Virus record (IMG/VR): IMGVR_UViG_2917849834_000007
Location: 1 to 33,433 of that record
Source: a virus
Taxonomy: Duplodnaviria; Heunggongvirae; Uroviricota; Caudoviricetes
Direction: 5' to 3' (one strand)
Length of the DNA: 33,433 nt
The number at the start of each line of letters is the position of its first letter. The stretch's first letter is position 1. The position numbers were made by a program, and so were the translations under genes. A model generated the notes under the pieces. The model was not told the origin of the DNA and made no database searches. It saw nothing but the letters and a program-made list of their open reading frames with translations. Positions 4,882-31,940 of the stretch are shown one piece after another.

Positions 4882-5400
4882 TCACAGGCCGATATTGCGG
4901 CGGTGTTGCTCCAGCCGGTCGACGCCGTTCACCTTCTCAATCATGTTGATGGTGTCAATTTCGACCAGCTCCTTACCGTCCATCGTCAGCCGGAAATAGG
5001 TGCAGACCACGGAGATTTTCGACTCGGTGTCTTCTCCCTGTTTACCCTCGCCGGTGTCGATTTCTTTCTGACGGCCACGCATGACCACTTCGACGGCCAC
5101 CGTTTCGCCGGTATCGTCACGCTGGTAAGAGCCTGCAAAACGAATCGGCACGGCATCCACACCGGTTGCGGCGTAAAGTTCCCAGATAACCGAATCCGGG
5201 AAGCCCCCGAGCGACCACTCCATTGACAGCGCATCGTCATCAAGGCCGAGGTCTACCGGTGCGCTGCCGTTCATCCCCGCACCGCGATAGTTTTCGAGCT
5301 TACGGGTCAGTTTTGGCAGCGTGACGGACTTCGCGACGCCCTGATAGCTGTAGCCGTTCAGAAAGACGTTCATTAACTTGAGTTTGCGCGGCATTGCCAT
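4882..5400 (-). CDS. FII: Tail tube protein FII, 172 aa
   Basis: ORF track; position and size as P2 gpFII. Confidence 0.9.
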   Translation of the reverse strand: MAMPRKLKLMNVFLNGYSYQGVAKSVTLPKLTRKLENYRGAGMNGSAPVDLGLDDDALSMEWSLGGFPDSVIWELYAATGVDAVPIRFAGSYQRDDTGETVAVEVVMRGRQKEIDTGEGKQGEDTESKISVVCTYFRLTMDGKELVEIDTINMIEKVNGVDRLEQHRRNIGL

Positions 5401-5412
5401 CGGTCAGGCTCC

Positions 5413-6603
5413 TTAATTGCTGTTAACCGAGGTGACCAGATTTGCCAGGTATTTATCGGTAATACGCTGGCGCAGGGTCAGGTTTTCAAGAGGAGGCACC
5501 GGGGTATAGTCGTAGTCGATATACAGTTTTCCGGCCTTGAGGGTTTCCGCATCGTTGGATTCTTCGCTGAACCAGCAGGTCGCATCCACGATATAGCCGT
5601 TTGTTTTCAGCTCACGGAATTTGGCATTGATACCGTCAACGATGTCGCGAATCAGCGTTGCGGTGATGGGCTTGTCCACCGCCCACATGTGCGCCTCAGC
5701 CATCGTGTCGGCCAGCACCTGCGCGGTGCGGGTGTAGTTTTCAAAGAGGAACAGCGGGTCATCAGAGCAGGTACGGTTACCCCAGAATCGGAAACCGTCG
5801 CGGCGAATCAGCGTAGTGACGCCTGACTCGTTAAGCAGGTCAGCATCAGTGCCGGACTCCTGCAAATCCCAGAATACAGATGCGCTGATGCCGGTAACAC
5901 CGTTTACCCCGACGTTGGACAGCGTTTTATGCCAGCCCTGCTCCTGGTCGATTTTAGCGCGCAGACCCAGCGCACGGGCGGTGGCATACGCGGTGGCGGT
6001 GGTGCTGGTGACCGTATCCCATGCGAGGAAATCCGGCCAGATGACCATCAGCTCACGCTGGCTGAAATTCTGGCGGTAGGCTTTCACCTCGGAAATGGTT
6101 TTACAGCCCCATGCGCTGATATACCCGAAAGCGCGCAGCTTCTGACAGACAGATGCCAGTGCAACAGCCACCTCTTTGGTGTCCAGTCCCGGTACGCCGA
6201 GAATACGCGGTTTAACACCGGTTACCGACTCCGCCGCCAGCAGGGCTTTCAGTCCGGTGTACTGACCGTTTTCGTCGGTGGTGCCGATGATATTGGAAAC
6301 GGTCTGCGCGAGTTTCGTTTCTTCGTCTTCGCCGGTGCCGTCTTCCACGCGCACGACAACGGTGACTGGTTTTGACTGGTCAGCGATGGCCTGCAATGAC
6401 GCCGCCAGCGTGCCTTTTTTACCTGCCTTTGCAATTGCGCTCTGCACATTGGTAATCAGCACCGGTTTATTGAGGGGGAAGGTTTCCGCATCCGCATCGC
6501 TGGCCGTACAGACCATGCCGACAATGGCAGTGGATACGGTGGAAATGACGCGGGTGCCGTCGTTAATCTCCAGCACCTGCACGCCGTGATGATAATCACT
6601 CAT
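5413..6603 (-). CDS. FI: Contractile tail sheath protein FI, 396 aa
   Basis: ORF track; ATG at 6601-6603 with GGAG ribosome-binding site upstream; position and size as P2 gpFI. Confidence 0.9.
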   Translation of the reverse strand: MSDYHHGVQVLEINDGTRVISTVSTAIVGMVCTASDADAETFPLNKPVLITNVQSAIAKAGKKGTLAASLQAIADQSKPVTVVVRVEDGTGEDEETKLAQTVSNIIGTTDENGQYTGLKALLAAESVTGVKPRILGVPGLDTKEVAVALASVCQKLRAFGYISAWGCKTISEVKAYRQNFSQRELMVIWPDFLAWDTVTSTTATAYATARALGLRAKIDQEQGWHKTLSNVGVNGVTGISASVFWDLQESGTDADLLNESGVTTLIRRDGFRFWGNRTCSDDPLFLFENYTRTAQVLADTMAEAHMWAVDKPITATLIRDIVDGINAKFRELKTNGYIVDATCWFSEESNDAETLKAGKLYIDYDYTPVPPLENLTLRQRITDKYLANLVTSVNSN

Positions 6604-6969: not shown

Positions 6970-7674
6970 TTATTTTTGTTTTTTTGGTGGCCTTGAGTGT
7001 TTTTCCGGTAATTTTTCTACGATTTTAAAAATGTTATTATCTTTTAGTACTGTTCGCATTACAAAGCTTTCTATAACAGCCAAAAGCGATTTAAATTCAT
7101 CTTCGTTCGGTGCCCATGCCCTATGTGCAGCTGAGTTGCCAGCTTCAGTTACAATTTTAAGTTGCTCTTTTTCTTTTTCCCCGATAAAACCTTCATCTTT
7201 GAGAATATCAACTTTCTGGCTTAATGTATATCCAGGGTGAATATCCAGAACCTCAACGGTTCTGTCAAAAATAGTTCTAAGCCCAATTGCCGCCAAAATG
7301 AATGATTTATTTTGAAATGCGATATACATTTCGTTCATTATTACATATAGCTGATAATCTTTGCTTAGCACCTCACCAAACCAATCAGGTCTAATTTCTT
7401 CCTGCTCTTGAGTAGGATATATTGATATATGTTCGTTATATATCATAAAATCATGCCCCGACCCATCTCTTTCTATGTCGTAATCTTCACTGTGACGGGA
7501 CTTTATATATGTAAATACTCCATCACACCCCATACACTCTAATAAATTATATTCACTCTCAGCCCAAAAGTAGTCATCCCCATCATTTTTACTCCACTCT
7601 CTTTTTGTATGACCTATTGTGAGACAATTTTTTTCACCTTTACAGTATGGGCAAGGCGCTTTAATTTTTTCCAT
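6970..7674 (-). CDS. AT-rich cargo protein, 234 aa, N-terminal CxxC...CxxC zinc ribbon, at the Z/fun position
   Basis: ORF track; ATG at 7672-7674; CPYC (aa 7-10) and CMGC (aa 47-50); sits between G and FI, flanked by non-coding AT-rich DNA (6604-6969 and 7675-7933); composition clearly lower in GC than the flanking tail genes. Confidence 0.75.
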   Translation of the reverse strand: MEKIKAPCPYCKGEKNCLTIGHTKREWSKNDGDDYFWAESEYNLLECMGCDGVFTYIKSRHSEDYDIERDGSGHDFMIYNEHISIYPTQEQEEIRPDWFGEVLSKDYQLYVIMNEMYIAFQNKSFILAAIGLRTIFDRTVEVLDIHPGYTLSQKVDILKDEGFIGEKEKEQLKIVTEAGNSAAHRAWAPNEDEFKSLLAVIESFVMRTVLKDNNIFKIVEKLPEKHSRPPKKQK

Positions 7675-20002: not shown

Positions 20003-21775
20003 ATGACCATCACCACAGACACCACTCTTTTACACGACCCGCGTCGTCAGGCGGCGCTGCTGTACTGGCAGGGATTTTCCGTGCCGCAGATTGCCGCCAT
20101 GTTGCAGATGAAACGCCCGACAGTGCAGAGCTGGAAACAGCGCGACGGCTGGGACAACGTTGCCCCCATCAGCCGTGTCGAAATGAGCCTGGAAGCGCGG
20201 CTGACCCAGCTCATCATCAAACCGCAGAAAACCGGCGGTGACTTCAAGGAAATTGACCTGCTGGGACGCCAGATTGAACGACTGGCACGGGTAAATCGCT
20301 ACAGCCAGACCGGCAACGAGGCAGACCTTAATCCGAACGTCGCTAACCGCAACAAAGGCGGGCGGCGCAAACCGAAAAAGAATTTTTTCAGTGACGAGGC
20401 CATCGAAAAGCTGGAGCAGATTTTCTTTGAGCAGTCTTTCGAATATCAGTTGCACTGGTATCGTGCCGGGCTTGAGCACCGCATCCGCGATATCCTGAAA
20501 TCCCGCCAGATTGGCGCGACGTTTTATTTTTCCCGCGAGGCGCTGCTGCGCGCCCTGAAAACCGGTCATAACCAGATTTTTCTGTCGGCCAGTAAAACGC
20601 AGGCGTATGTGTTCCGTGAATACATCATCGCCTTTGCCCGTCTGGTTGACGTTGACCTGACCGGTGACCCGATTGTCCTGGGCAATAACGGCGCAAAACT
20701 GATTTTTCTCGGCACCAACTCCAACACCGCACAGAGCCATAACGGCGACCTGTACGTCGATGAGATTTTCTGGATCCCGAATTTTCAGGTACTGCGTAAA
20801 GTGGCATCAGGTATGGCCTCACAGAGTCACCTGCGCTCGACCTATTTCTCCACCCCGTCCACGCTGGCGCACGACGCCTACCCGTTCTGGTCGGGTGAAC
20901 TGTTTAACCGGGGACGCGCCAGCGCCGCCGAACGCGTGGAAATCGACGTCAGTCATAACGCCCTTGCCGGTGGGCTTCTCTGTGCGGACGGCCAGTGGCG
21001 GCAGATTGTCACCATTGAGGACGCCCTGAAAGGTGGCTGCACGCTGTTCGACATTGAGCAGCTCAAACGCGAAAACAGCGCCGACGATTTTAAAAACCTG
21101 TTCATGTGTGAATTTGTTGACGACAAGGCGTCGGTGTTCCCGTTCGAGGAGCTGCAACGCTGCATGGTCGACACGCTGGAAGAATGGGAAGACTACGCGC
21201 CGTTTGCCGCAAATCCGTTCGGCTCCCGCCCGGTATGGATTGGTTACGACCCGTCACACCGTGGCGACAGCGCCGGATGCGTGGTGCTGGCACCGCCGGT
21301 GGTGGCCGGTGGCAAATTCAGGATACTTGAGCGTCACCAGTGGAAAGGCATGGACTTTGCCACCCAGGCTGAATCCATCCGCAAACTCACCGAAAAATAT
21401 AACGTCGAATACATCGGTATTGATGCCACCGGCCTCGGTGTCGGCGTGTTCCAGCTCGTGCGCTCGTTCTATCCCGCCGCGCGCGATATCCGCTACACAC
21501 CGGAAATGAAAACCGCAATGGTGCTCAAGGCAAAAGACGTTATCCGTCGTGGCTGTCTGGAATATGACGTCAGCGCCACCGACATCACCAGCTCGTTTAT
21601 GGCTATCCGCAAGACCATGACCAGCAGCGGACGCAGCGCCACCTATGAGGCCAGCCGCAGCGAGGAAGCCAGCCACGCCGACCTCGCCTGGGCGACCATG
21701 CACGCCCTGTTAAATGAGCCACTCACCGCCGGTATCAGCACCCCGCTGACATCCACCATTCTGGAGTTTTACTGA
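20003..21775 (+). CDS. P: Terminase large (ATPase) subunit P, 590 aa
   Basis: ATG at 20003 inside ORF 19973..21775 gives MTITTDTTLLHDPRRQAALLYWQGF...; stop TGA overlaps the Q start (TGATG at 21773-21777). Confidence 0.9.
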   Translation: MTITTDTTLLHDPRRQAALLYWQGFSVPQIAAMLQMKRPTVQSWKQRDGWDNVAPISRVEMSLEARLTQLIIKPQKTGGDFKEIDLLGRQIERLARVNRYSQTGNEADLNPNVANRNKGGRRKPKKNFFSDEAIEKLEQIFFEQSFEYQLHWYRAGLEHRIRDILKSRQIGATFYFSREALLRALKTGHNQIFLSASKTQAYVFREYIIAFARLVDVDLTGDPIVLGNNGAKLIFLGTNSNTAQSHNGDLYVDEIFWIPNFQVLRKVASGMASQSHLRSTYFSTPSTLAHDAYPFWSGELFNRGRASAAERVEIDVSHNALAGGLLCADGQWRQIVTIEDALKGGCTLFDIEQLKRENSADDFKNLFMCEFVDDKASVFPFEELQRCMVDTLEEWEDYAPFAANPFGSRPVWIGYDPSHRGDSAGCVVLAPPVVAGGKFRILERHQWKGMDFATQAESIRKLTEKYNVEYIGIDATGLGVGVFQLVRSFYPAARDIRYTPEMKTAMVLKAKDVIRRGCLEYDVSATDITSSFMAIRKTMTSSGRSATYEASRSEEASHADLAWATMHALLNEPLTAGISTPLTSTILEFY

Positions 21776-22809
21776 TGAGCAAGAAAAAAGGGAAAACACC
21801 GCAACCTGCGGCAAAAACAATGACCGCCAGCGCCCCGAAAATGGAGGCATTCACCTTCGGTGAGCCGGTACCGGTACTCGACCGGCGTGACATTCTGGAT
21901 TACGTCGAATGCATCAGTAACGGCAGATGGTATGAGCCACCGGTCAGCTTTACCGGTCTGGCAAAAAGCCTGCGTGCTGCCGTACATCACAGCTCACCGA
22001 TTTACGTTAAACGCAATATTCTGGCCTCGACATTTATCCCGCATCCGTGGCTTTCCCAGCAGGATTTCAGCCGCTTTGTGCTGGATTTTCTGGTGTTCGG
22101 TAATGCGTTTCTGGAAAAGCGTTACAGCACCACCGGTAAGGTCATCAGACTGGAAACCTCACCGGCAAAATATACCCGCCGTGGTGTGGAAGAGGATGTT
22201 TACTGGTGGGTGCCGTCCTTCAACGAGCCGACACCTTTCACGCCCGGCTCCGTGTTTCACCTGCTGGAGCCGGATATTAATCAGGAGCTGTACGGCCTGC
22301 CGGAATATCTCAGCGCCCTTAACTCTGCCTGGCTGAATGAGTCGGCCACGCTGTTCCGCCGCAAGTATTACGAAAACGGCGCACATGCCGGATACATCAT
22401 GTACGTCACCGATGCCGTGCAGGATCGCAACGATATCGAAATGCTTCGCGAAAACATGGTTAAGTCGAAAGGCCGCAATAACTTTAAAAACCTGTTTCTC
22501 TATGCCCCACAGGGGAAAGCCGACGGCATTAAAATTATCCCGCTCAGTGAAGTGGCAACGAAAGACGATTTTTTTAATATCAAAAAAGCCAGCGCCGCAG
22601 ACCTGCTGGACGCGCACCGCATCCCCTTTCAGTTGATGGGTGGCAAGCCGGAGAACGTCGGGTCACTGGGAGATATTGAGAAAGTGGCAAAGGTCTTTGT
22701 CCGCAATGAGCTTATCCCGCTACAGGACAGGATTCGGGAAATAAACGGCTGGCTCGGTCAGGAGGTCATCCGCTTTAAAAACTACTCACTGGACACTGAC
22801 AACGGCTGA
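21775..22809 (+). CDS. Q: Portal protein Q, 344 aa
   Basis: ORF track; last gene before cos, as in P2. Confidence 0.9.
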   Translation: MSKKKGKTPQPAAKTMTASAPKMEAFTFGEPVPVLDRRDILDYVECISNGRWYEPPVSFTGLAKSLRAAVHHSSPIYVKRNILASTFIPHPWLSQQDFSRFVLDFLVFGNAFLEKRYSTTGKVIRLETSPAKYTRRGVEEDVYWWVPSFNEPTPFTPGSVFHLLEPDINQELYGLPEYLSALNSAWLNESATLFRRKYYENGAHAGYIMYVTDAVQDRNDIEMLRENMVKSKGRNNFKNLFLYAPQGKADGIKIIPLSEVATKDDFFNIKKASAADLLDAHRIPFQLMGGKPENVGSLGDIEKVAKVFVRNELIPLQDRIREINGWLGQEVIRFKNYSLDTDNG

Positions 22810-22836: not shown

Positions 22837-22978
22837 ACACCCCGTCATCACGCCCTCACACGCTCACCACCGCACAAAACATCCCGCAGACCCACCAACG
22901 CCCCGGCGCACAATCCAAACGCCGTCACGACGCGCTCAGACGCTGAAAAAATAAAATCAGCACCACCGCCAGCGCGCA

Positions 22979-22997
22979 GTGCTTTCCCCGCCTCGCC
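22979..22997 (-). other. cos: cos cohesive-end site (19 nt)
   Basis: + strand gtgctttccccgcctcgcc; its reverse complement GGCGAGGCGGGGAAAGCAC is the P2 cohesive end as I recall it; located just beyond Q as in P2. Confidence 0.7.
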
Positions 22998-23120
22998 CGC
23001 CCGCTTCATGGGTCGGTTTTAATGCAGGTGCATGACATGATTTCTCCGCGCCGACACTGGCACGGAGCACTCTTAACAGATAAACAATAATCATGCATTC
23101 TAATGCAGCAACATAAAAGT

Positions 23121-25142
23121 TTATAATTTCCTCAACAATTTCCCATTGTTCTTATCAAAGGATATCATTGTATAGTCATACCCTTCTAATGCCTCTTTTA
23201 AGACATTTTCATCTTCTGATGTAGCAAAAATGATCTGCCCTTGTCCTTTTGTTGTTTCTGCAGCATCTTTAAGTAACTCGGCAAAACTTACTTTATTTGC
23301 TTCTTGTTGACGAGGCTCATCAAACACAATCAATCCAGGGTGATTTGTTTGAAATTTAGAACCAACAACAAATAAACTTATTAAATAACCCCAAATGATT
23401 CTTATTCCATCACTAGCTGATGTGTCAAAACCTATATCATATCCTTCCCTAGTAGGTAAGTAATTATCTTCTGATATTGACACAAGTTTAGAATCAAAAC
23501 TTGTAAAATTATATTTTTCTAATCGTGCAACGACTTCTTTATTAAGAAATTTTAACTTATCGGCATCATTACGCGACAAGAAATTATCTGGCAATCCTTT
23601 TCTTTTCGCGATAAGCTTTTTATATCTACGGTGTAATGAATCCAACTCCAGTCTAATGTCCAATATACTTTTAATGCCATCGTTAATGGCATTAATTTTA
23701 TTCTCAATGTTTATTTTACGTCTCAGAAACTCCTCCTGAACAACCATTGAGGGATATTTTGACTCCCTTAATGCATTAATATCAACTCTAATCTTGGCTA
23801 TTTCCCCCTCTAAATCACTCCTCTCAACATCTTTAAGCTTTAATTGCTTTTCACTATCCGACAGAACAAACTCAAATGCTTTTACTTGCTCTTTAATAAA
23901 GTTCAAACTATCTTCATATGTCATCAGATTTTCTTGCGATGAAAAACTTAGCAAATTATCATTATAACTTGCACCACAAGTCGGACAAATATTTGACATT
24001 AAATCTGTTGACTTATACGCATCCGAAGATGATATTTTCTTTAAATCTTCATACTTCCTTTTATCTTCCAACAGATTATACAATCTGTTTTTGGTCGCCT
24101 GAATTTGATATTGAATATAACTTCTATGCTCACAAATCTCTTTAATCTTTAATTCCAGAGAGTTAATTTCATCATTTTTTTGACCTAATAACTTAACCAC
24201 TGATAATTGTAAAGTTTGTTCTTCTTGCTCACCAAGAGTGTCAAACTTAATTTCTTGCAACTCTTTTTCCAGTTCATTACGAACATCAACAATAGATCTA
24301 ACGACACTACCATTTTTAATAATCAAATCTATCTTATAATGATCAAATTTTGCCACTGGTTGTTCAGGAATCCCTGTGACAACTGACGACAATTTAGAAG
24401 CAATAACTTCTGCATTGTGTTTAATTAACTTCCAATCATGATAAATAATATCAAGCTCATTTCTTAACGAACTACGCAATAAAATATTATCATTAACATC
24501 AAGAGACATTAAAAATTCTAGAGCTCTTTTCTTTGGCTCTTTAATTCCAAATTGTGTTGGTACAGTCGCCATAATTGACGACCATCCTTTTTTTTGCTCA
24601 ACATACCATGCAGGGAAAAGTACGGATGGATAAAGAATAGTGTCCTTCCCATTATGGTTTGGAACATTTGGCAAACTCCAACCTATAAAATCAGCTAACC
24701 ACTTATAGAAACCACGTTCCCTTTCAGTATCGCCCTCTCTATGTAAAAAATAAGTACCACTCTTACTTTTTACATTATTCTTCTCATCTATATAAATAAC
24801 ATTATTATTATCGTGACCGATAATATTCCTTTTCAAAGATGCTTCTATTCCCTTATGATTCTTTATTTTTAGCAAAACATAAGATGATATTACACTAACT
24901 TCAACATTATCTTTTGTCGTTAGTGCTCTAGTCAAAGATGGAGGGAATGGGATTTTTCCAGAACCGACACCTAATGCCTTTTCCATCCCAAGTGCATATG
25001 CAATCCCATTCATGCAAGTTGATTTACCATGAGAATTCTCAACTCTTAATAAAAACAAGCCATTTGAAAAAGGTATACTAACACCATAACGCCCATCCGA
25101 AGTATTTGCTACTAACTCCAATGAAATAATTTCCAACGACAT
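23121..25142 (-). CDS. Rad50/SbcC-like coiled-coil ABC ATPase with CPxC zinc hook, 673 aa; third gene of cargo operon
   Basis: Hand-checked motifs: Walker A ENSHGKST near 25013-25036; central coiled coil with CPTCG near 23971-23988; Walker B GLIVFDEP near 23310-23340; signature-like SASDG. ATG at 25140-25142 with AGGTGGG ribosome-binding site. Low GC. Confidence 0.8.
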   Translation of the reverse strand: MSLEIISLELVANTSDGRYGVSIPFSNGLFLLRVENSHGKSTCMNGIAYALGMEKALGVGSGKIPFPPSLTRALTTKDNVEVSVISSYVLLKIKNHKGIEASLKRNIIGHDNNNVIYIDEKNNVKSKSGTYFLHREGDTERERGFYKWLADFIGWSLPNVPNHNGKDTILYPSVLFPAWYVEQKKGWSSIMATVPTQFGIKEPKKRALEFLMSLDVNDNILLRSSLRNELDIIYHDWKLIKHNAEVIASKLSSVVTGIPEQPVAKFDHYKIDLIIKNGSVVRSIVDVRNELEKELQEIKFDTLGEQEEQTLQLSVVKLLGQKNDEINSLELKIKEICEHRSYIQYQIQATKNRLYNLLEDKRKYEDLKKISSSDAYKSTDLMSNICPTCGASYNDNLLSFSSQENLMTYEDSLNFIKEQVKAFEFVLSDSEKQLKLKDVERSDLEGEIAKIRVDINALRESKYPSMVVQEEFLRRKINIENKINAINDGIKSILDIRLELDSLHRRYKKLIAKRKGLPDNFLSRNDADKLKFLNKEVVARLEKYNFTSFDSKLVSISEDNYLPTREGYDIGFDTSASDGIRIIWGYLISLFVVGSKFQTNHPGLIVFDEPRQQEANKVSFAELLKDAAETTKGQGQIIFATSEDENVLKEALEGYDYTMISFDKNNGKLLRKL

Positions 25143-25143
25143 A

Positions 25144-25620
25144 TTAACCCACCTGAAATATTTTATTAATGTTAGTTTCGGACAGTCCAGCCTTATGTTT
25201 ATTTAGCACCAACCTTTCTTCTTTGAACACATCAAGAGAAAGCAATTTCTCAGCGACCTTAAGCCCCTTTTCATTTATTTTGAACGCTCGTTCATTTCTC
25301 AAAATAAAATCCTCTGCTAATAATAGCTGTATTGCTCTATCTAAAGTTGGATCCAATCTTACTTCAGGCTTTAAACCTTCTTTGTTTAAAAGCCAGAATT
25401 CAAACATTGCTTCATTATTCTCTGACTTTAACATCCAATTAATTAAATGAAGTTTTTTTAAAGAACAGCAACCAGCTCTCCCTGTGACAAGGAATATTAT
25501 CAGCAACAAACTGCAACGCCACAATGGTCTCATATCACATGGCAAATGTTCAGGTCGTTTATTAAACGTAAACGGCCTTCCTATTATTTCATCTATCGTT
25601 ATATGCATTTGCTTTTCCAT
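25144..25620 (-). CDS. Small protein of unknown function, 158 aa; possible middle component
   Basis: ORF track; ATG at 25618-25620; stop TAA 25144-25146 is 1 nt from the ATPase start; start is 1 nt from the stop of the upstream gene. Low GC. Confidence 0.7.
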   Translation of the reverse strand: MEKQMHITIDEIIGRPFTFNKRPEHLPCDMRPLWRCSLLLIIFLVTGRAGCCSLKKLHLINWMLKSENNEAMFEFWLLNKEGLKPEVRLDPTLDRAIQLLLAEDFILRNERAFKINEKGLKVAEKLLSLDVFKEERLVLNKHKAGLSETNINKIFQVG

Positions 25621-25621
25621 T

Positions 25622-26542
25622 CTAAAAATCTAAAGGGCATCTTATAAGCCAATCAGAAATAACTCCCCATGTTATCTTATCCAAGTCAGCCTGTTTAAGC
25701 GTACTAACTTCCTCTTCAATACATTTCTTTAACAAAGCGATTTCATCTTTCATTATATCTGATGGTTTCGCATCTGATGAAGTAAGAAGAAAGAGACCTA
25801 CCAAATTACGTTCTCTATGTTGAACACAGTTATAGATAATTTCATAGATATCAACCCAGTCTCTCTTCAAAGCATCCAGCAAGTTTTGATAATCAAGATA
25901 TTTTTGTATTAAAAACTCTCTATATAAACCCTGCCTAGATACATCATCATTTATCTTAGGTAATTTTAAATTTAGCTTATCTAAAAAAGATGTATTTTCA
26001 CTAATAAAGTTAGCAGCATTCTCAGCCGTCGCATCATTTATATTAAAGCTTAATTGATAGTTATTTTTGCGAAGAAAGAACGCTTCTTCTATATAATTTC
26101 GATCTGTTTGCACTACTATTTGAAAATCATCAGCAACGTAAGAAATCCCTAACTCTCTTACTTTTAATGATTTTTTTGTGCAATATTGACTTAATTTCGC
26201 CGATTTATTATATGGTGTAGCTAATATCCAGCGGCTAATTTTTAATGTGCCAAAAAGCTCCTCTAATTCTTTAATGTTATCCTGAGAAAACTTTTTTATA
26301 TCAGTATAAATCTTTTTTTGTTGCGCTTTATAAAGCTTATCAATATCACTCGACTGCTCAGGCAAGTAACACTGAAAAACATGACCACTCAGAGTGTAAC
26401 ACTCCAGCCCAAAGTCGCCTCCATGCTCATCTGGCAAGTCACAACAGTTAGCAGGCTTATAATGTAGCCAAACAATATTTTTGAAATATGATTCCCACGC
26501 TTTTGGGTCACTATAAGGATCGTTATACATCGCCAAGCCCAT
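25622..26542 (-). CDS. Protein of unknown function, 306 aa; candidate effector, first gene of cargo operon
   Basis: ORF track; ATG at 26540-26542; N-terminal Cys/His/acidic cluster (NCCDLPDEHGGDFGLECY) that I cannot assign to a fold. Low GC. Confidence 0.7.
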   Translation of the reverse strand: MGLAMYNDPYSDPKAWESYFKNIVWLHYKPANCCDLPDEHGGDFGLECYTLSGHVFQCYLPEQSSDIDKLYKAQQKKIYTDIKKFSQDNIKELEELFGTLKISRWILATPYNKSAKLSQYCTKKSLKVRELGISYVADDFQIVVQTDRNYIEEAFFLRKNNYQLSFNINDATAENAANFISENTSFLDKLNLKLPKINDDVSRQGLYREFLIQKYLDYQNLLDALKRDWVDIYEIIYNCVQHRERNLVGLFLLTSSDAKPSDIMKDEIALLKKCIEEEVSTLKQADLDKITWGVISDWLIRCPLDF

Positions 26543-26652
26543 AAATCAATTTTTTGTAGTATAACTTCTTACACATCAAAGAGTAAATCCACCTAGTTTG
26601 CAAATTATCAACCTACAAGAGTGTTTCGGTGTGCAGATTTTTCATATTTAGA
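26543..26652 (-). promoter_or_regulatory. Intergenic region between A stop and the cargo operon; candidate sigma70 promoter
   Basis: Minus strand reads ...TTTACT-(18 nt)-TATACT-(about 19 nt)-ATG; -10-like hexamer at + coords 26558-26563. Read by eye only. Confidence 0.3.
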
Positions 26653-28926
26653 TTACCACCTCGAAAATGCTTCCCACGCCTTCTGAACATGGTAATGAAA
26701 TTCTTTTGCGCCATAGTTCACAATTGCACCACGCGCCAGCGCCTCAAGCTCCCATCGCTGCGGCCTGATACCGTTCTGAGCAAGGTCTACACGGATACGG
26801 GTAATTTGCAATCGTTCCGACCGGGTCAGCCTGGCTGATGGCGCTATTTCATGCGGTTTTAACGGGCTTCCGTTTCTTTGCTGACGATTTGGTGTTCTCA
26901 GTCCGTGTTTTAATGCACCTCTGAGCGCCCTCACGACCTCCGGGTCATTCCATTCGATAACACCGTCATCAACCAGATTAAGCACTGCTGCGGCGTGCTC
27001 AGAAGGTGTGGGAGCCGGTAACGAAGTATCACCACCGGTGACCTTTCCACAGTTATTGACAGGACTCCGAGGCGCGGCGATGCCGCTTTTTAAAGTCAAA
27101 GGCTCAACGACCGGCACTTTCGGAACAATGCGCCAGTCCGTCGTTCTGGTGATATGAATATGACGCGCGCCGAGATGCGGCGCGTAAATGCCGACCACTC
27201 TCTCGACTTCTTCCTCGTACTCGTTAACTTCATCCGACGGACTACGGGCGACCCTGACAGTCTGACAATCGCGCGGGACATTTGCCCCACCCTGCGCGCT
27301 GATATACAGCGCAAAATCACCACTGTCTGCGGCGGCGCGTGCAGCCTCGACACGCTCGTCAAACTCATCAGCAATGCTGACGCCGCGAGGCAATTTGCGT
27401 AGTTCACGGTAAGCCCCCATTGTCGGCAGGCCAACCGTTTTAAATTGCGGAATGCGCCACGTTGACGCCCATGTGGTAACAGCCGCAGCAGTATCTTTCA
27501 GCGGCCTGCCGGTGTCGTTATCGAGCTGCCCATCCAGTGCATAGCCGTCGATATTTTTTGAGATGTATTTCGCGATATACCCCGCAGCACCGCCCCGGTT
27601 AAGGTGTTTTGCCTGAAAACGGTTTCGCGCGGCTCCTCTTTCGTCGCCATCCTCTTTGAGCGCATAGCGACGCATGATTTCGATAATCTGGTTACGCTGG
27701 CGTGGATTACAAAAAAGCATCATATGCCAGTGCGGCGTTCCGTCGTGGTGTGGCTCGACGACACGCAAACCGTAGACCTGTAAATCATTATCCTTGAATG
27801 CCGTGCGCATCAGGCTCCAGATACGGCAGAGATAACGCTGCGCATCCTTTGGATTAAATGCCTCATCGTTCCAGCCGTGATTAAGCTGAACGGTTTTACT
27901 TTCGCCTTTTCCGACCTGACGTGTCGGGTGATACTTTGACGGCGCGGTCAGCGTGATAAACATCCCCACATCACCCTCTGCGGCGGCGTAACGCTCAATA
28001 CCGGCAATGGTGTTCATCAGCTCCATCCGGCGAATTTCTGGATTAGAAATACTGCCCATCACCTTACTGATAAGGTCGATGCGCTCGCCGGTTTCCCTGT
28101 TTTCGAGGTCGCACGATTTAAGAAATTCCAGATTTGCCTGGCGGCGTGCACGCACATCACGAATGGCATGTTTACTGGCATAAGGAGAACGGTCTTTATT
28201 GACCTCCCCGACAGCAATCAGTAACGCCTCATGCCAGCGCATACGCTGGCCTTTAAGCTGACTAATCCACCACTCATCGTTAAACAGACGGGCAATGGCA
28301 GAATATGCCTGCCTCGTGGTCATCTGTCCTTTACGGTATTTTTTCCAGTAGAGAGGGGAAATATTGAAAGCACGTGCAGCGCCAGCAACATGACCATACA
28401 GGTGAGCCTGCGCCTCATCCGTAAACAGTGATTCTTTTTCGCCATGCGCATCCACCCAGGCATCGCTGAGTTCCTCATACATCATGAAAAGCTGCGATGA
28501 GATACGGGCAGCAAACTTTTTCAGCTCCTTGTCATTCATTCCCGGCAGGCGCGCATAGTGGTCACGCTCTGCCAGAAACAGCAACGACGCGTCGGTGTTC
28601 ATTTCATGGCGCTGATTCACACGCTCAATGCGCGGCCATAAACGACGCTGAAAAGTGGATGTGAGGAAATAAAACCCGTGCACCGGGCTTTTATTGCGCC
28701 GGATGTAGTCATAGCGTGAAGTAAACAGCGAACGCAAAAAGTAAGGCAGGCGGTTAATCGTGGATAAAACACCTTGCACCTGACGCATCTCGTCACGTGT
28801 AAGGGGTCTTTCGCGCCCGACAGCCTCGCGTGGCGCGTTCCATGCATAAGCACCGGAAAACGTCTTACCGGTGCCTGCGGTAAATGCTGACGGAGGGACA
28901 AAACGCCCGGAGGCTTTAACGGCCAT
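26653..28926 (-). CDS. A: Replication initiation endonuclease A (rolling-circle initiator), about 757 aa
   Basis: ATG at 28924-28926 inside ORF 26653..28968 gives MAVKASGRFVPPSAF..., matching P2 gpA as recalled; the start at 28968 is an alternative. Confidence 0.85.
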   Translation of the reverse strand: MAVKASGRFVPPSAFTAGTGKTFSGAYAWNAPREAVGRERPLTRDEMRQVQGVLSTINRLPYFLRSLFTSRYDYIRRNKSPVHGFYFLTSTFQRRLWPRIERVNQRHEMNTDASLLFLAERDHYARLPGMNDKELKKFAARISSQLFMMYEELSDAWVDAHGEKESLFTDEAQAHLYGHVAGAARAFNISPLYWKKYRKGQMTTRQAYSAIARLFNDEWWISQLKGQRMRWHEALLIAVGEVNKDRSPYASKHAIRDVRARRQANLEFLKSCDLENRETGERIDLISKVMGSISNPEIRRMELMNTIAGIERYAAAEGDVGMFITLTAPSKYHPTRQVGKGESKTVQLNHGWNDEAFNPKDAQRYLCRIWSLMRTAFKDNDLQVYGLRVVEPHHDGTPHWHMMLFCNPRQRNQIIEIMRRYALKEDGDERGAARNRFQAKHLNRGGAAGYIAKYISKNIDGYALDGQLDNDTGRPLKDTAAAVTTWASTWRIPQFKTVGLPTMGAYRELRKLPRGVSIADEFDERVEAARAAADSGDFALYISAQGGANVPRDCQTVRVARSPSDEVNEYEEEVERVVGIYAPHLGARHIHITRTTDWRIVPKVPVVEPLTLKSGIAAPRSPVNNCGKVTGGDTSLPAPTPSEHAAAVLNLVDDGVIEWNDPEVVRALRGALKHGLRTPNRQQRNGSPLKPHEIAPSARLTRSERLQITRIRVDLAQNGIRPQRWELEALARGAIVNYGAKEFHYHVQKAWEAFSRW

Positions 28927-30977: not shown

Positions 30978-31574
30978 TCAATCTACTTTGCGCCATGAGT
31001 ATTTTTGCATTCCTGGCGCATATTTTTCTACAGCATTAATAATACTCAGCGCATCAAATTCGCTATAACCTTTTTCGTCACCCGATAACTTTGATACTCC
31101 GTAGTACACATGACCGATAAACCTGTCATTTTCATAACAAGCTCTACAGTATAGAGTCACATAGTTGCGTAATGGGGTTAGCTCGCAACCAATAATAGAA
31201 AGATCACCAAAACGCAAAATCTCAAATTTACTTGATTTGCTTCTTTTTGTTTTAGTTGGGGCATGTTGATTCTGGCTGATTAACGCAAATGACTCTTGTA
31301 AATTATTTATAATCTCATTACGTTCATCTCTTTTGTTATTTTCCAGCCTGACACATCCACATTTAATTAAATGCGTCAAAGTCTCAATTTCTGCAGCTCT
31401 TACAGGTAAAGCCAGAAAATTAACTTCTTCTTCTAATTTTTTCGCTTCAATTTCTATGTCATCAACTATGGCTGATACGTTAGATTGCCCTTCAATCGAC
31501 AAAAGTCTCGTGCGCAGCTCGATGATCAACGATTGAATTTTTTTAGCTGCCGTGTTTCCTACTATAGTGTTCAT
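30978..31574 (-). CDS. Protein of unknown function, 198 aa; AT-rich cargo between cox and orf78
   Basis: ORF track; ATG at 31572-31574; no motif I recognise. Confidence 0.7.
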   Translation of the reverse strand: MNTIVGNTAAKKIQSLIIELRTRLLSIEGQSNVSAIVDDIEIEAKKLEEEVNFLALPVRAAEIETLTHLIKCGCVRLENNKRDERNEIINNLQESFALISQNQHAPTKTKRSKSSKFEILRFGDLSIIGCELTPLRNYVTLYCRACYENDRFIGHVYYGVSKLSGDEKGYSEFDALSIINAVEKYAPGMQKYSWRKVD

Positions 31575-31583
31575 AACATGCCC

Positions 31584-31940
31584 TCACACCATACGCCCTA
31601 ATTTCGACTTGCTATAACTAATGCGGTTCTTCCAGTCATGCCATTCTGTCGGAGCTTCATCGACTAGTTGAGCTGCATATTTGTCCCACTCACGACGATT
31701 AATCCATAACTCAGCATTCCCCCCTGGCTTCAGTGGGTCTGTCATATAGAACGCAGGGAGCTTGCCTGCTCTCGCCATTTCTGCTACAGCGCGTGGTGTC
31801 TTACCTATGTAAAGAGCAAAACCCTCTTTCGACAGCAAATCTGAAGGCACAGCAGCCAATTTAACTGAATGACGTTTTGCTTTTGTAAGAACTGAGACTT
31901 CTTGTCTTGTCTCGTCAGAAATTTCAGATCCGACATTCAT
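31584..31940 (-). CDS. cox: Cox-like excisionase / early transcriptional regulator, 118 aa
   Basis: ORF track; ATG at 31938-31940; the segment FALYIGKTPRAVAEMARAGKLPAFYMTDP resembles the Cox DNA-binding region; first gene of the early operon, divergent from C. Confidence 0.7.
   Translation of the reverse strand: MNVGSEISDETRQEVSVLTKAKRHSVKLAAVPSDLLSKEGFALYIGKTPRAVAEMARAGKLPAFYMTDPLKPGGNAELWINRREWDKYAAQLVDEAPTEWHDWKNRISYSKSKLGRMV

What the first reader, a model, noticed from the sequence alone, without database searches (positions are those of the whole stretch)
23121..25142. 673-aa ATPase has split ABC head motifs flanking a coiled coil with a CPTCG zinc hook
Translated by hand from the minus strand: Walker A ENSHGKST near the N-terminus; a long central region rich in heptad-like charged repeats; CPTCG at roughly residue 395, matching the Rad50/SbcC CPxC hook; then SASDG (signature-like), GLIVFDEP (Walker B) and IIFATSEDE near the C-terminus. 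There is no Mre11/SbcD-like partner gene next to it, which argues against a housekeeping SbcCD copy. The Walker A glycine is replaced (E/N-S-H-G-K-S-T), so activity may be regulatory rather than processive.
Basis: partly seen in the sequence, partly recalled or inferred. Interest (0 to 1): 0.7.

Follow-up and report, generated by a model that had tools for sequence, protein, structure and literature searches.

The report
Lamassu defence ATPase in P2 prophage

Summary
ORF 23121..25142(-) encodes 673 aa with Walker A (VENSHGKST, 34-42), a long helical insert, CPTC (386-389, not ~395), SASDG (575-579), Walker B (LIVFDEP, 604-610) and IIFATSE (637-643).

The ORF is not an orphan. It is the last gene of a tightly coupled operon lmuA (306 aa), lmuC (158 aa), lmuB. 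All three match PADLOC Lamassu models (1e-29, 2.5e-23, 1e-98). The operon lies in a 3.6-kb island of 33% GC between replication gene A and the cos site and portal gene of a P2-like prophage. That position is the published P2 defence hotspot.

The AlphaFold model (pLDDT 84) places CPTC at the apex of an antiparallel coiled coil. Its best structural matches are solved Lamassu LmuB chains, then Rad50. C386, P387 and C389 are conserved in all 217 homologues examined, down to 26% identity.

LmuA has a restriction-endonuclease-fold N-domain and a six-helix C-terminal domain.

The "Walker A glycine" point is minor: the wider family has Ala or Gly there, and Lys40 is invariant or nearly so. More notable is that this clade always keeps the Walker B glutamate, which the structurally studied Lamassu systems lack.

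Verdict: a known kind of system in a known place. Interest is low.

The parts
23121..25142 (-). lmuB: 673-aa Rad50/SMC-like ABC ATPase with a coiled coil and zinc hook. It is the sensor subunit of Lamassu.
   Evidence: It matches PADLOC LmuB model PDLC03863 at E=1.1e-98 over residues 1-669, and all 10 PADLOC hits are LmuB models. The AlphaFold2 model has pLDDT 84. The top Foldseek PDB hits are solved LmuB chains: 9uxh_F 3.5e-14, 9hqx_B 2e-13, 9ux7_A, 9hqu_A and 9nyg_B.
25017..25043 (-). Walker A / P-loop VENSHGKST (residues 34-42).
   Evidence: N36, G39, K40 and S41 are invariant in the 69-sequence alignment and conserved in 143-146 of 149 rows among more distant representatives. The first position is V or L in close relatives and A (119) or G (16) in 149 rows of more distant representatives.
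24594..24596 (-). Q183, the probable Q-loop glutamine, in the conserved segment VEQKKGW.
   Evidence: Q183 and W187 are conserved in 149/149 rows and invariant in A1 and A3. Assigning it to the Q-loop is an inference.
24222..24392 (-). An alpha/beta insertion of about 57 residues (251-307) that interrupts the ascending coiled-coil arm.
   Evidence: The model has strands at 254-256, 272-277 and 280-283 and a helix at 284-297, with block pLDDT 79-87 up to residue 300 and 58 for 301-310. G257, P262, F266 and D272 are at least 90% conserved. Its role is unknown.
23976..23987 (-). CPTC zinc-hook motif (residues 386-389) at the coiled-coil apex.
   Evidence: C386 and C389 are conserved in 149/149 rows and P387 in 148/149, and all three are invariant in A1. 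The motif lies between helix 308-372 and helix 409-460. A CPxCG hook is a described LmuB feature (PMC10586767; PMC12663957).
23406..23420 (-). Signature-motif equivalent SASDG (residues 575-579), followed by invariant R581.
   Evidence: S575 is conserved in 144, A576 in 142, S577 in 147 and D578 in 149 of 149 rows.
23313..23333 (-). Walker B LIVFDEP (residues 604-610) with the catalytic glutamate retained, followed by invariant Q612.
   Evidence: D608, E609, P610 and Q612 are each conserved in 149/149 rows. This contrasts with the E-to-Q Walker B of the structurally studied LmuB proteins. It still falls within the published short-Lamassu pattern hhhhD[Q/S/T/E].
23214..23234 (-). IIFATSE (residues 637-643), at the position where ABC ATPases carry the H-loop. 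No histidine is present.
   Evidence: T641 is conserved in 133, S642 in 140 and E643 in 117 of 149 rows. Assigning it to the H-loop is an inference from its spacing after Walker B.
25144..25620 (-). lmuC: the small middle component (158 aa as the longest ORF; mostly annotated as 154 aa starting at Met5).
   Evidence: It matches PADLOC LmuC model PDLC03871 at E=2.5e-23 over residues 17-156. A 153-154-aa ORF occupies the same position in distant loci L002 and L003, and BLASTP against the L002 copy gives 3e-15. The junctions to both neighbouring genes are stop-1 nt-ATG.
25622..26542 (-). lmuA: the effector, with a PD-(D/E)xK-fold nuclease N-domain (about residues 1-159) and a six-helix C-terminal domain (173-301). 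The true start is probably Met5 (26530).
26558..26587 (-). Promoter-like site TTTACT-18-TATACT, 15 nt upstream of the lmuA ATG.
   Evidence: It is a consensus match only, 9 of 12 positions. Function is not shown.
23040..26650 (.). Low-GC cargo island (about 0.25-0.44 GC against 0.5-0.64 in the flanks) that holds the three genes.
   Evidence: This follows from the composition profiles. P2-like phage records match only the first ~140 bases of the 22900-26700 query, on the cos side of the island. The three genes occur in 32 of 5426 complete E. coli genomes, whereas the flanking sequence occurs in 2156.
22979..22997 (-). GGCGAGGCGGGGAAAGCAC, a 19-mer that I recall as the P2 cohesive-end (cos) sequence. 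It lies next to the island.
   Evidence: There is a single exact match, with 0 expected by chance. Its identity as P2 cos is from memory. The hotspot 'near the cos site' is described in PMC13586616.
26653..28968 (-). P2 replication protein GpA, which forms one border of the hotspot.
   Evidence: It matches Pfam Phage_GPA PF05840 at 2e-123. RefSeq annotates it as 'replication endonuclease'.
21775..22809 (+). Portal protein (GpQ), which forms the other border of the hotspot.
   Evidence: It matches Pfam Phage_portal PF04860 at 5.3e-14. The neighbouring genes are terminase, scaffold and a P2-family capsid protein.

Best explanation
The ORF is lmuB, the SMC/Rad50-like sensor ATPase of a short, three-gene (type II) Lamassu anti-phage system. 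The operon is lmuA-lmuC-lmuB. It is carried as AT-rich cargo in the GpA-cos-GpQ defence hotspot of a P2-like prophage of E. coli.

The likely mechanism is inferred by homology with the solved Salmonella and Vibrio complexes.
1. Two LmuB protomers join at their heads and at the apex. There, the CPTC motifs of the two chains would together bind one zinc ion.
2. The folded coiled coils, together with one LmuC, hold a single LmuA monomer in an inactive, sequestered state.
3. The complex binds DNA ends or replication intermediates produced by an infecting phage.
4. ATP-dependent head engagement then opens the complex and releases LmuA.
5. Free LmuA oligomerises into an active nuclease, degrades DNA indiscriminately and aborts the infection.

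In this clade the effector is a restriction-endonuclease-fold (PD-(D/E)xK-type) domain rather than Cap4.

Shown here: family membership of all three proteins, the operon structure, the fold, the apex position and invariance of the hook, and the hotspot location. Inferred: zinc binding, stoichiometry, the trigger, nuclease activity and abortive infection.
For: - Family matches: the PADLOC LmuB, LmuC and LmuA models match the three adjacent genes at 1.1e-98, 2.5e-23 and 1.1e-29. No other defence family matches LmuB at E<=0.01.
- Operon: the genes are separated by single bases (TAGAATG, TAATATG).
- Conserved synteny: the same 300 / 154 / 680-aa arrangement is found at 29% LmuB identity next to an integrase in Pantoea, and in Pseudomonas cavernae.
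- LmuB structure: the model shows a split ABC head with an antiparallel coiled coil and CPTC at the turn. Foldseek ranks solved Lamassu LmuB chains first (3.5e-14 to 2e-9), ahead of Rad50, SMC, MukB and AriA.
- Hook conservation: CPxC is conserved in all 217 homologues examined.
- Published Lamassu mechanism: LmuB has an ABC head, a coiled coil and a zinc hook. Defence requires the hook, ATP binding and head engagement. LmuA is sequestered, then released, and forms tetramers (bioRxiv 10.1101/2025.03.14.643221; PMC12663957).
- Location: the main P2 defence hotspot lies between GpA and GpQ, near cos (PMC13586616). Both borders were confirmed here.
- Cargo behaviour: the island is 33% GC against about 55% in the flanks. 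It is present in 32 of 5426 E. coli genomes, while the flanking sequence is present in 2156.
Against: - No experiment exists for this clade that I could find.
- Sequence similarity to solved LmuB chains is remote: 12-14% identity in structural alignments and profile E=0.004 at best.
- The Walker B glutamate is invariant here. The studied systems have Gln, so the ATPase cycle may differ.
- The LmuA active site is non-canonical (D43, E47 and Q57-x-Y59, with K77 on the following helix; there is no (D/E)xK triad), so nuclease activity is an inference.
- No Pfam or NCBIfam model covers LmuA or LmuC.
- The zinc-hook dimer and the A1B2C1 complex could not be modelled with the tools available.
- A profile of the hook region alone does not distinguish Rad50 hooks from generic CPxC zinc knuckles.
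Confidence: 0.88

Rival explanations
1. It is a Lamassu-type module with a different working cycle or a different target. Because the Walker B glutamate is retained, LmuB might hydrolyse ATP and act as a resettable sensor rather than a one-way switch. The system might mainly serve prophage-versus-phage, prophage-versus-satellite or anti-plasmid competition rather than classical abortive infection.
For: - D608, E609 and P610 are each conserved in 149/149 rows. The structurally studied LmuB proteins carry E-to-Q and hydrolyse about 1 ATP/min.
- The H-loop position lacks histidine, and the ascending arm carries a conserved 57-residue insertion.
- V. cholerae Lamassu also acts against plasmids.
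- The module sits on a prophage.
Against: - Published surveys already list hhhhD[Q/S/T/E] as the range of short-Lamassu Walker B motifs, so Glu is within the known range.
- All Lamassu systems tested so far behave as abortive-infection systems.
- Nothing in the sequence indicates a different output.
Confidence: 0.08
2. It is a phage- or host-encoded SbcC/Rad50-type DNA repair or recombination ATPase, that is, a housekeeping-like function.
For: - Profile searches give weak hits to Rad50 heads (3aux, 1.4e-5).
- Rad50 is among the structural matches (7zr1, 5.8e-10).
- Lamassu is thought to descend from SbcCD.
Against: - No Mre11/SbcD gene is adjacent.
- The protein is 673 aa with a short coiled coil.
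- Solved LmuB chains rank above Rad50 in the fold search.
- All PADLOC hits are LmuB models.
- The cassette is dispensable cargo, absent from nearly all P2-like phages and from 99.4% of complete E. coli genomes.
- It is always linked to lmuA and lmuC.
Confidence: 0.02
3. It is another hook-bearing or ABC-type defence ATPase: RloC (anticodon nuclease), OLD, Gabija GajA, PARIS AriA or Wadjet JetC.
For: - RloC also combines a Rad50-like ABC ATPase with a CxxC hook and appears among distant LmuB homologues.
- AriA and JetC appear low in the fold-search list.
- The canonical cargo of this P2 locus is old (from memory).
Against: - No PADLOC hit to any of these families at E<=0.01.
- The protein ends with the C-terminal ABC lobe, with no fused tRNase or TOPRIM domain.
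- There is no hinge domain.
- AriA and JetC matches are 9-10 orders of magnitude weaker than the LmuB matches.
Confidence: 0.02

Closest known systems
Short (type II, three-gene) Lamassu / ABC-3C systems: Salmonella enterica LmuACB (PDB 9hqu, 9hqx) and type II LmuACB (9uxh)
   Same: - The gene order is lmuA-lmuC-lmuB.
- LmuB has a split ABC head, a short coiled coil and a CxxC zinc hook at the apex.
- LmuA has an N-terminal nuclease domain and a helical C-terminal domain.
- LmuC is a small middle component.
- These chains are the best structural matches.
- In the Salmonella system the hook, ATP binding and head engagement are required for defence.
   Different: - Structural alignments show only 12-14% identity, and there is no significant single-sequence match.
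- The Walker B motif here is D-E, not D-Q.
- The Walker A motif starts with Val.
- There is an extra alpha/beta insertion at residues 251-307.
- The effector is a different PD-(D/E)xK-fold domain with a non-canonical motif, not Cap4.
Vibrio cholerae DdmABC (Lamassu Vc-Cap4; PDB 9nxx, 9nyg)
   Different: DdmC has lost the zinc hook, whereas the hook is invariant here. DdmA carries a Cap4 nuclease. DdmC is shorter (the solved chain is 571 aa).
Rad50-Mre11 / SbcCD
   Same: Both have an ABC head, an antiparallel coiled coil and a CPxC hook. SbcCD is the proposed evolutionary ancestor of Lamassu. Profile matches to Rad50 heads are weak.
   Different: There is no Mre11/SbcD partner. The coiled coil is much shorter. 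The nuclease is a separate, releasable subunit rather than stably bound. The context is mobile cargo, not housekeeping.
P2 old/tin locus: the defence hotspot between GpA and GpQ near cos in P2-like phages
   Same: The position is identical: flanked by GpA and portal, next to cos. The cargo is AT-rich and swappable.
   Different: The cargo here is Lamassu rather than old/tin. This particular cargo occurs in only 32 of 5426 complete E. coli genomes.

Membership tests
Lamassu (LmuB) | The sequence matches an LmuB profile over its full length. | tested here: met
   PADLOC model PDLC03863 matches at E=1.1e-98 over residues 1-669 of 673. Nine further LmuB models also match, and no other family does.
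Lamassu (LmuB) | An SMC/Rad50-like ABC ATPase head is split by an antiparallel coiled coil. | tested here: met
   The AlphaFold2 model has pLDDT 84, with the head at 1-215 plus 545-673 and long paired helices between. The top Foldseek hits are solved LmuB chains.
Lamassu (LmuB) | A CxxC zinc hook sits at the coiled-coil apex. This is present in many clades but not all. | tested here: met
   CPTC at 386-389 lies at the turn between helices 308-372 and 409-460. It is conserved in all 217 homologues examined. Zinc binding and dimerisation themselves could not be tested.
Lamassu (LmuB) | The Walker A lysine and an ATP-binding site are intact. | tested here: met
   G39 is invariant. K40 and S41 are invariant in the 69-sequence alignment and conserved in 146 and 142 of 149 rows among representatives. 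Q183, D608 and E609 are invariant. The first Walker A position is Val instead of Gly or Ala.
Lamassu (LmuB) | The Walker B motif is deviant (E to Q), as in the structurally studied members. | tested here: not met
   The motif here is hhhhDE, conserved in 149/149 rows. This is not a defining feature: the published short-Lamassu consensus is hhhhD[Q/S/T/E].
Lamassu (system) | An adjacent lmuA encodes an N-terminal effector domain and a helical C-terminal docking domain. | tested here: met
Lamassu (system) | A small middle component, lmuC, lies between lmuA and lmuB (type II). | tested here: met
   PADLOC LmuC matches at 2.5e-23. The position is conserved in L002 and L003.
Lamassu (system) | The system shows anti-phage or anti-plasmid activity by abortive infection, with an LmuA1B2C1 complex and release and oligomerisation of LmuA. 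| not testable with these tools
   This needs cloning, plaque assays and biochemistry. No multimer prediction tool was available.
Rad50/SbcC (SbcCD, MR complex) | An Mre11/SbcD phosphoesterase partner is encoded next to it. | tested here: not met
   The neighbours are LmuC and LmuA. Neither has a metallophosphatase or any other Pfam match.
Rad50/SbcC (SbcCD, MR complex) | The protein has a long coiled coil (SbcC is about 1050 aa) and a housekeeping chromosomal context. | tested here: not met
   The protein is 673 aa. It sits in prophage cargo that is absent from 99.4% of complete E. coli genomes.
RloC | A C-terminal anticodon-nuclease domain is fused to the hook-bearing ABC ATPase. | tested here: not met
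   The protein ends with the C-terminal ABC lobe. There is no PADLOC hit to RloC.
P2-like phage defence hotspot | The cargo is located between GpA and GpQ, next to cos. | tested here: met
   GPA (PF05840, 2e-123) and portal (PF04860) flank the island. A cos-like 19-mer lies at 22979-22997. The hotspot is defined in PMC13586616.

The most novel reading that the evidence does not exclude
This large clade may work differently from the solved Lamassu complexes. It comprises at least 812 clusters at 50% identity with E<=1e-30. Every member examined combines an invariant zinc hook with an intact Walker B Asp-Glu pair, and it lacks the H-loop histidine. The closer relatives examined also carry a conserved alpha/beta insertion in the ascending arm. 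The effector is a nuclease with a non-canonical PD-(D/E)xK site that no Pfam model covers. The clade might, for example, be a hydrolysis-competent, resettable DNA-end sensor rather than a one-way switch.
Probability: 0.12. Interest if true: 0.45.

Novelty: already known. Interest (0 to 1): 0.15.

Why it matters
The value is mainly for annotation and context.

- **Annotation.** This exact LmuB sequence occurs on 848 public E. coli contigs and in 32 complete genomes, including O145:H28 strains isolated from ice cream and a human. It is labelled 'hypothetical', 'coiled-coil domain-containing' or 'ATP-binding'. Its LmuC partner is often mislabelled 'serine/threonine protein kinase'. Calling it a prophage-borne Lamassu system corrects that, and it is relevant to predicting phage susceptibility.
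- **Mechanism.** The clade is a natural comparison for the solved Lamassu complexes, because it keeps both the zinc hook and the catalytic Walker B glutamate.
- **Limits.** Nothing here opens a new question. The family, its hook and the hotspot are all published.

Tried and rejected
- **Pfam and NCBIfam.** Single-sequence scans of the three proteins gave nothing significant, only AAA_23 at 0.0025 for LmuB. Scanning 54 LmuA homologues against Pfam gave only noise. Of 69 LmuB homologues, 41 weakly match AAA_23.
- **Sequence searches of PDB.** Single sequences found nothing for any of the three proteins. LmuB profiles gave only weak Rad50-head hits and one LmuB hit at 0.004, among coiled-coil noise such as keratins and lamins. 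The LmuA profile gave nothing meaningful.
- **Hook-only profile.** A 74-column profile of the hook region was searched against PDB to test whether CPTC aligns specifically with the Rad50 hook. The Rad50 hooks 1l8d and 6zff appear only at E~0.35, among RING fingers and other CPxC knuckles, so the test is not informative.
- **Tested E. coli system.** I checked whether this is the experimentally tested E. coli SE15 'Lamassu-Mrr' of Millman et al.. SE15 is not among the 32 genomes that carry this cassette, even in blastn 'distant' mode. No experimental test of this cassette was found.
- **Krishnan et al. 2020.** The ABC-3C classification paper is not held in the library, so the MC and CTD subtype numbers could not be assigned.
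- **Phage records.** None of 50,697 phage records carries the island.
- **Rejected alternatives.** SbcCD, RloC, OLD/Gabija/PARIS and Wadjet were considered and rejected on architecture and profile evidence.
- **Technical.** One python alignment timed out and was rerun with faster settings.
Full report
**Observation**

The minus-strand ORF 23121..25142 is real and encodes 673 aa.
- VENSHGKST is at residues 34-42.
- CPTC is at residues 386-389.
- SASDG is at residues 575-579.
- LIVFDEP is at residues 604-610.
- IIFATSE is at residues 637-643.

The protein has only four cysteines, and two of them form CPTC.

The ORF is the last of three minus-strand genes separated by single bases, with junctions TAGAATG and TAATATG. 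The genes are a 306-aa ORF (25622..26542), a 158-aa ORF (25144..25620) and the 673-aa ORF.

All three lie in an island of about 3.6 kb with roughly 33% GC, inside sequence of about 55% GC.

On one side are a portal gene (Pfam PF04860), terminase, scaffold and a P2-family capsid gene. On the other side is replication protein GpA (PF05840, 2e-123). A 19-mer that I recall as the P2 cos sequence lies at 22979-22997, right next to the island.

A 2026 survey of thousands of P2-like phages states that most P2 defence systems sit in a hotspot between GpA and GpQ near cos (PMC13586616). The cassette is therefore hotspot cargo.

**Identity**

Against PADLOC, the three proteins match LmuB (PDLC03863, E=1.1e-98, full length), LmuC (2.5e-23) and LmuA (1.1e-29). 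All ten hits for the large protein are LmuB models. Pfam and NCBIfam are essentially silent. That explains why RefSeq calls the genes 'hypothetical', 'coiled-coil domain-containing' or 'ATP-binding'.

**Homologues and conservation**

A word-indexed search found 113 relatives of about 675 aa. Those that carry a source name come from Enterobacterales, Pseudomonas, Shewanella, Colwellia and other bacteria. An exhaustive profile search of 1.84 billion cluster representatives found 1938 clusters at E<=1e-3 and 812 at E<=1e-30.

In 69 relatives down to 28% identity, these residues are invariant: C386, P387, C389, N36, G39, K40, S41, Q183, D578, R581, D608, E609, P610 and Q612.

In an alignment of the query with 148 representatives at 26-39% identity:
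- CPxC is conserved in 149/149 rows (P387 in 148).
- D-E-P is conserved in 149/149 rows.
- K40 is conserved in 146/149 rows.
- The first Walker A position is Ala in 119 rows and Gly in 16.

The Val or Leu seen in this protein and its close relatives is therefore a local variation on a classical [AG]x4GK[ST] P-loop. It is not evidence for a dead or purely regulatory site.

**Structure of LmuB**

AlphaFold2 with the 69-sequence alignment gave pLDDT 84. The model shows:
- an ABC head made of residues 1-215 and 545-673;
- ascending helices 216-250 and 308-372, separated by a confidently modelled alpha/beta insertion at 251-307;
- a hook loop at 380-408 that contains CPTC;
- descending helices 409-460, 464-515 and 524-543.

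Foldseek against PDB ranks solved Lamassu LmuB chains first: 9uxh_F at 3.5e-14, 9hqx_B at 2e-13, then 9ux7_A, 9hqu_A and 9nyg_B. Rad50, SMC and MukB come next, and AriA and JetC are much weaker.

At the sequence level the relation to solved structures is remote. There is no single-sequence hit. Profiles give only weak Rad50-head hits and one LmuB hit. A profile of the hook region alone cannot distinguish Rad50 hooks from generic CPxC knuckles.

**The partners**

LmuA homologues are about 300 aa. Their invariant residues are D43, E47, Q57, K77, D81 and K84, plus the C-terminal segment WLIRCPLDF, in which seven of the nine residues are invariant.

The effector is thus a restriction-endonuclease-fold nuclease, but its motif is not a textbook (D/E)xK, so catalytic competence is inferred. 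The six-helix C-terminal domain matches the published description of short-Lamassu LmuA C-terminal domains.

The same 300 / 154 / 680-aa arrangement occurs at 29% LmuB identity next to an integrase in Pantoea. It also occurs in Pseudomonas cavernae a few kb downstream of a MobI-like gene. The partner proteins in the Pantoea locus are recognisably homologous. The three genes therefore travel as one module.

**What is known**

- Cryo-EM work on Salmonella LmuACB describes the ABC head, the coiled coil and the zinc hook. Defence needs the hook, ATP binding and head engagement. ATP turnover is about 1 per minute. LmuA is sequestered, then liberated, and oligomerises (bioRxiv 10.1101/2025.03.14.643221).
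- The V. cholerae study reports A1B2C1 stoichiometry, DNA-end sensing, LmuA tetramers, hook copy number of 0-2 across clades, a Walker B consensus of hhhhD[Q/S/T/E] in short Lamassu, and descent from SbcCD (PMC12663957).
- Millman et al. list PDDEXK and Mrr effectors and note Lamassu members in prophage hotspots.

**How it most likely works**

This is inferred by homology. An LmuB dimer, joined at the heads and at a shared zinc hook, folds around one LmuC and one LmuA and keeps the nuclease monomeric and inactive. Phage DNA ends or replication intermediates, together with ATP-driven head engagement, open the complex. Released LmuA oligomerises, cuts DNA and aborts the infection, which protects the lysogen population and the prophage.

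**What differs**

This clade keeps the Walker B glutamate in every member examined. It has no histidine at the H-loop position. It carries a conserved insertion in the ascending arm. Its LmuA and LmuC are covered by no Pfam model. These points leave a small chance of a different ATPase cycle. That is the most novel reading not excluded.

**Distribution**

The cassette occurs in 32 of 5426 complete E. coli genomes at >=99.3% identity, always on the chromosome. The flanking phage sequence occurs in 2156 genomes. None of 50,697 phage records carries the cassette. The exact LmuB sequence is on 848 public contigs. It is not the E. coli SE15 system tested by Millman et al..

**Verdict**

The object is a catalogued Lamassu system in a catalogued hotspot. 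Novelty: already known. Interest: 0.15.

Noticed in passing
window 6970-7674 (-): A 234-aa ORF lies in a second low-GC patch (GC 0.37) between the tail-fibre genes and the sheath gene. This is the position of the P2 Z/fun locus, the second published P2 hotspot. It matches Pfam DUF4145 at 1.4e-13 and has no PADLOC hit. It may be a single-gene defence or exclusion candidate.
   Followed up: partly
window 25144-25620 (-): Many NCBI and UniRef records name LmuC 'serine/threonine protein kinase'. It is 154-158 aa and has no kinase match in Pfam, so this looks like a propagated misannotation.
   Followed up: partly
window 24222-24392 (-), LmuB residues 251-307: A confidently modelled small alpha/beta insertion interrupts the ascending coiled-coil arm. 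G257, P262, F266 and D272 are conserved. Its role is unknown. It could be a folding point or a docking site for LmuA or LmuC.
   Followed up: no
window 30978-31574 (-): A 198-aa ORF next to the cox gene (31584-31940, PF10743 at 2.4e-29) has no Pfam or PADLOC match. The region has GC of about 0.40-0.43.
   Followed up: no
L001 (E. coli GPEC1240, NZ_CM142783.1) 5260-5910: In this strain the prophage carrying the same cassette is defective. The scaffold and portal genes are truncated pseudogenes and the large terminase gene is missing, yet the three Lamassu genes are intact. This fits published reports of defence genes being retained in decaying P2 elements.
   Followed up: no
H6, E. coli FDAARGOS_1249 (NZ_CP069459.1) 263313-268179: An IS5-family transposase lies in the flank of the island. 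The match is split into two pieces there, while the three genes themselves are uninterrupted.
   Followed up: no
window 26530-26587 (-): Only a weak promoter-like site and no obvious Shine-Dalgarno sequence precede lmuA. Most homologues start at the second Met (26530). The 33%-GC island would be a plausible H-NS target, as shown for other P2-borne cargo.
   Followed up: no
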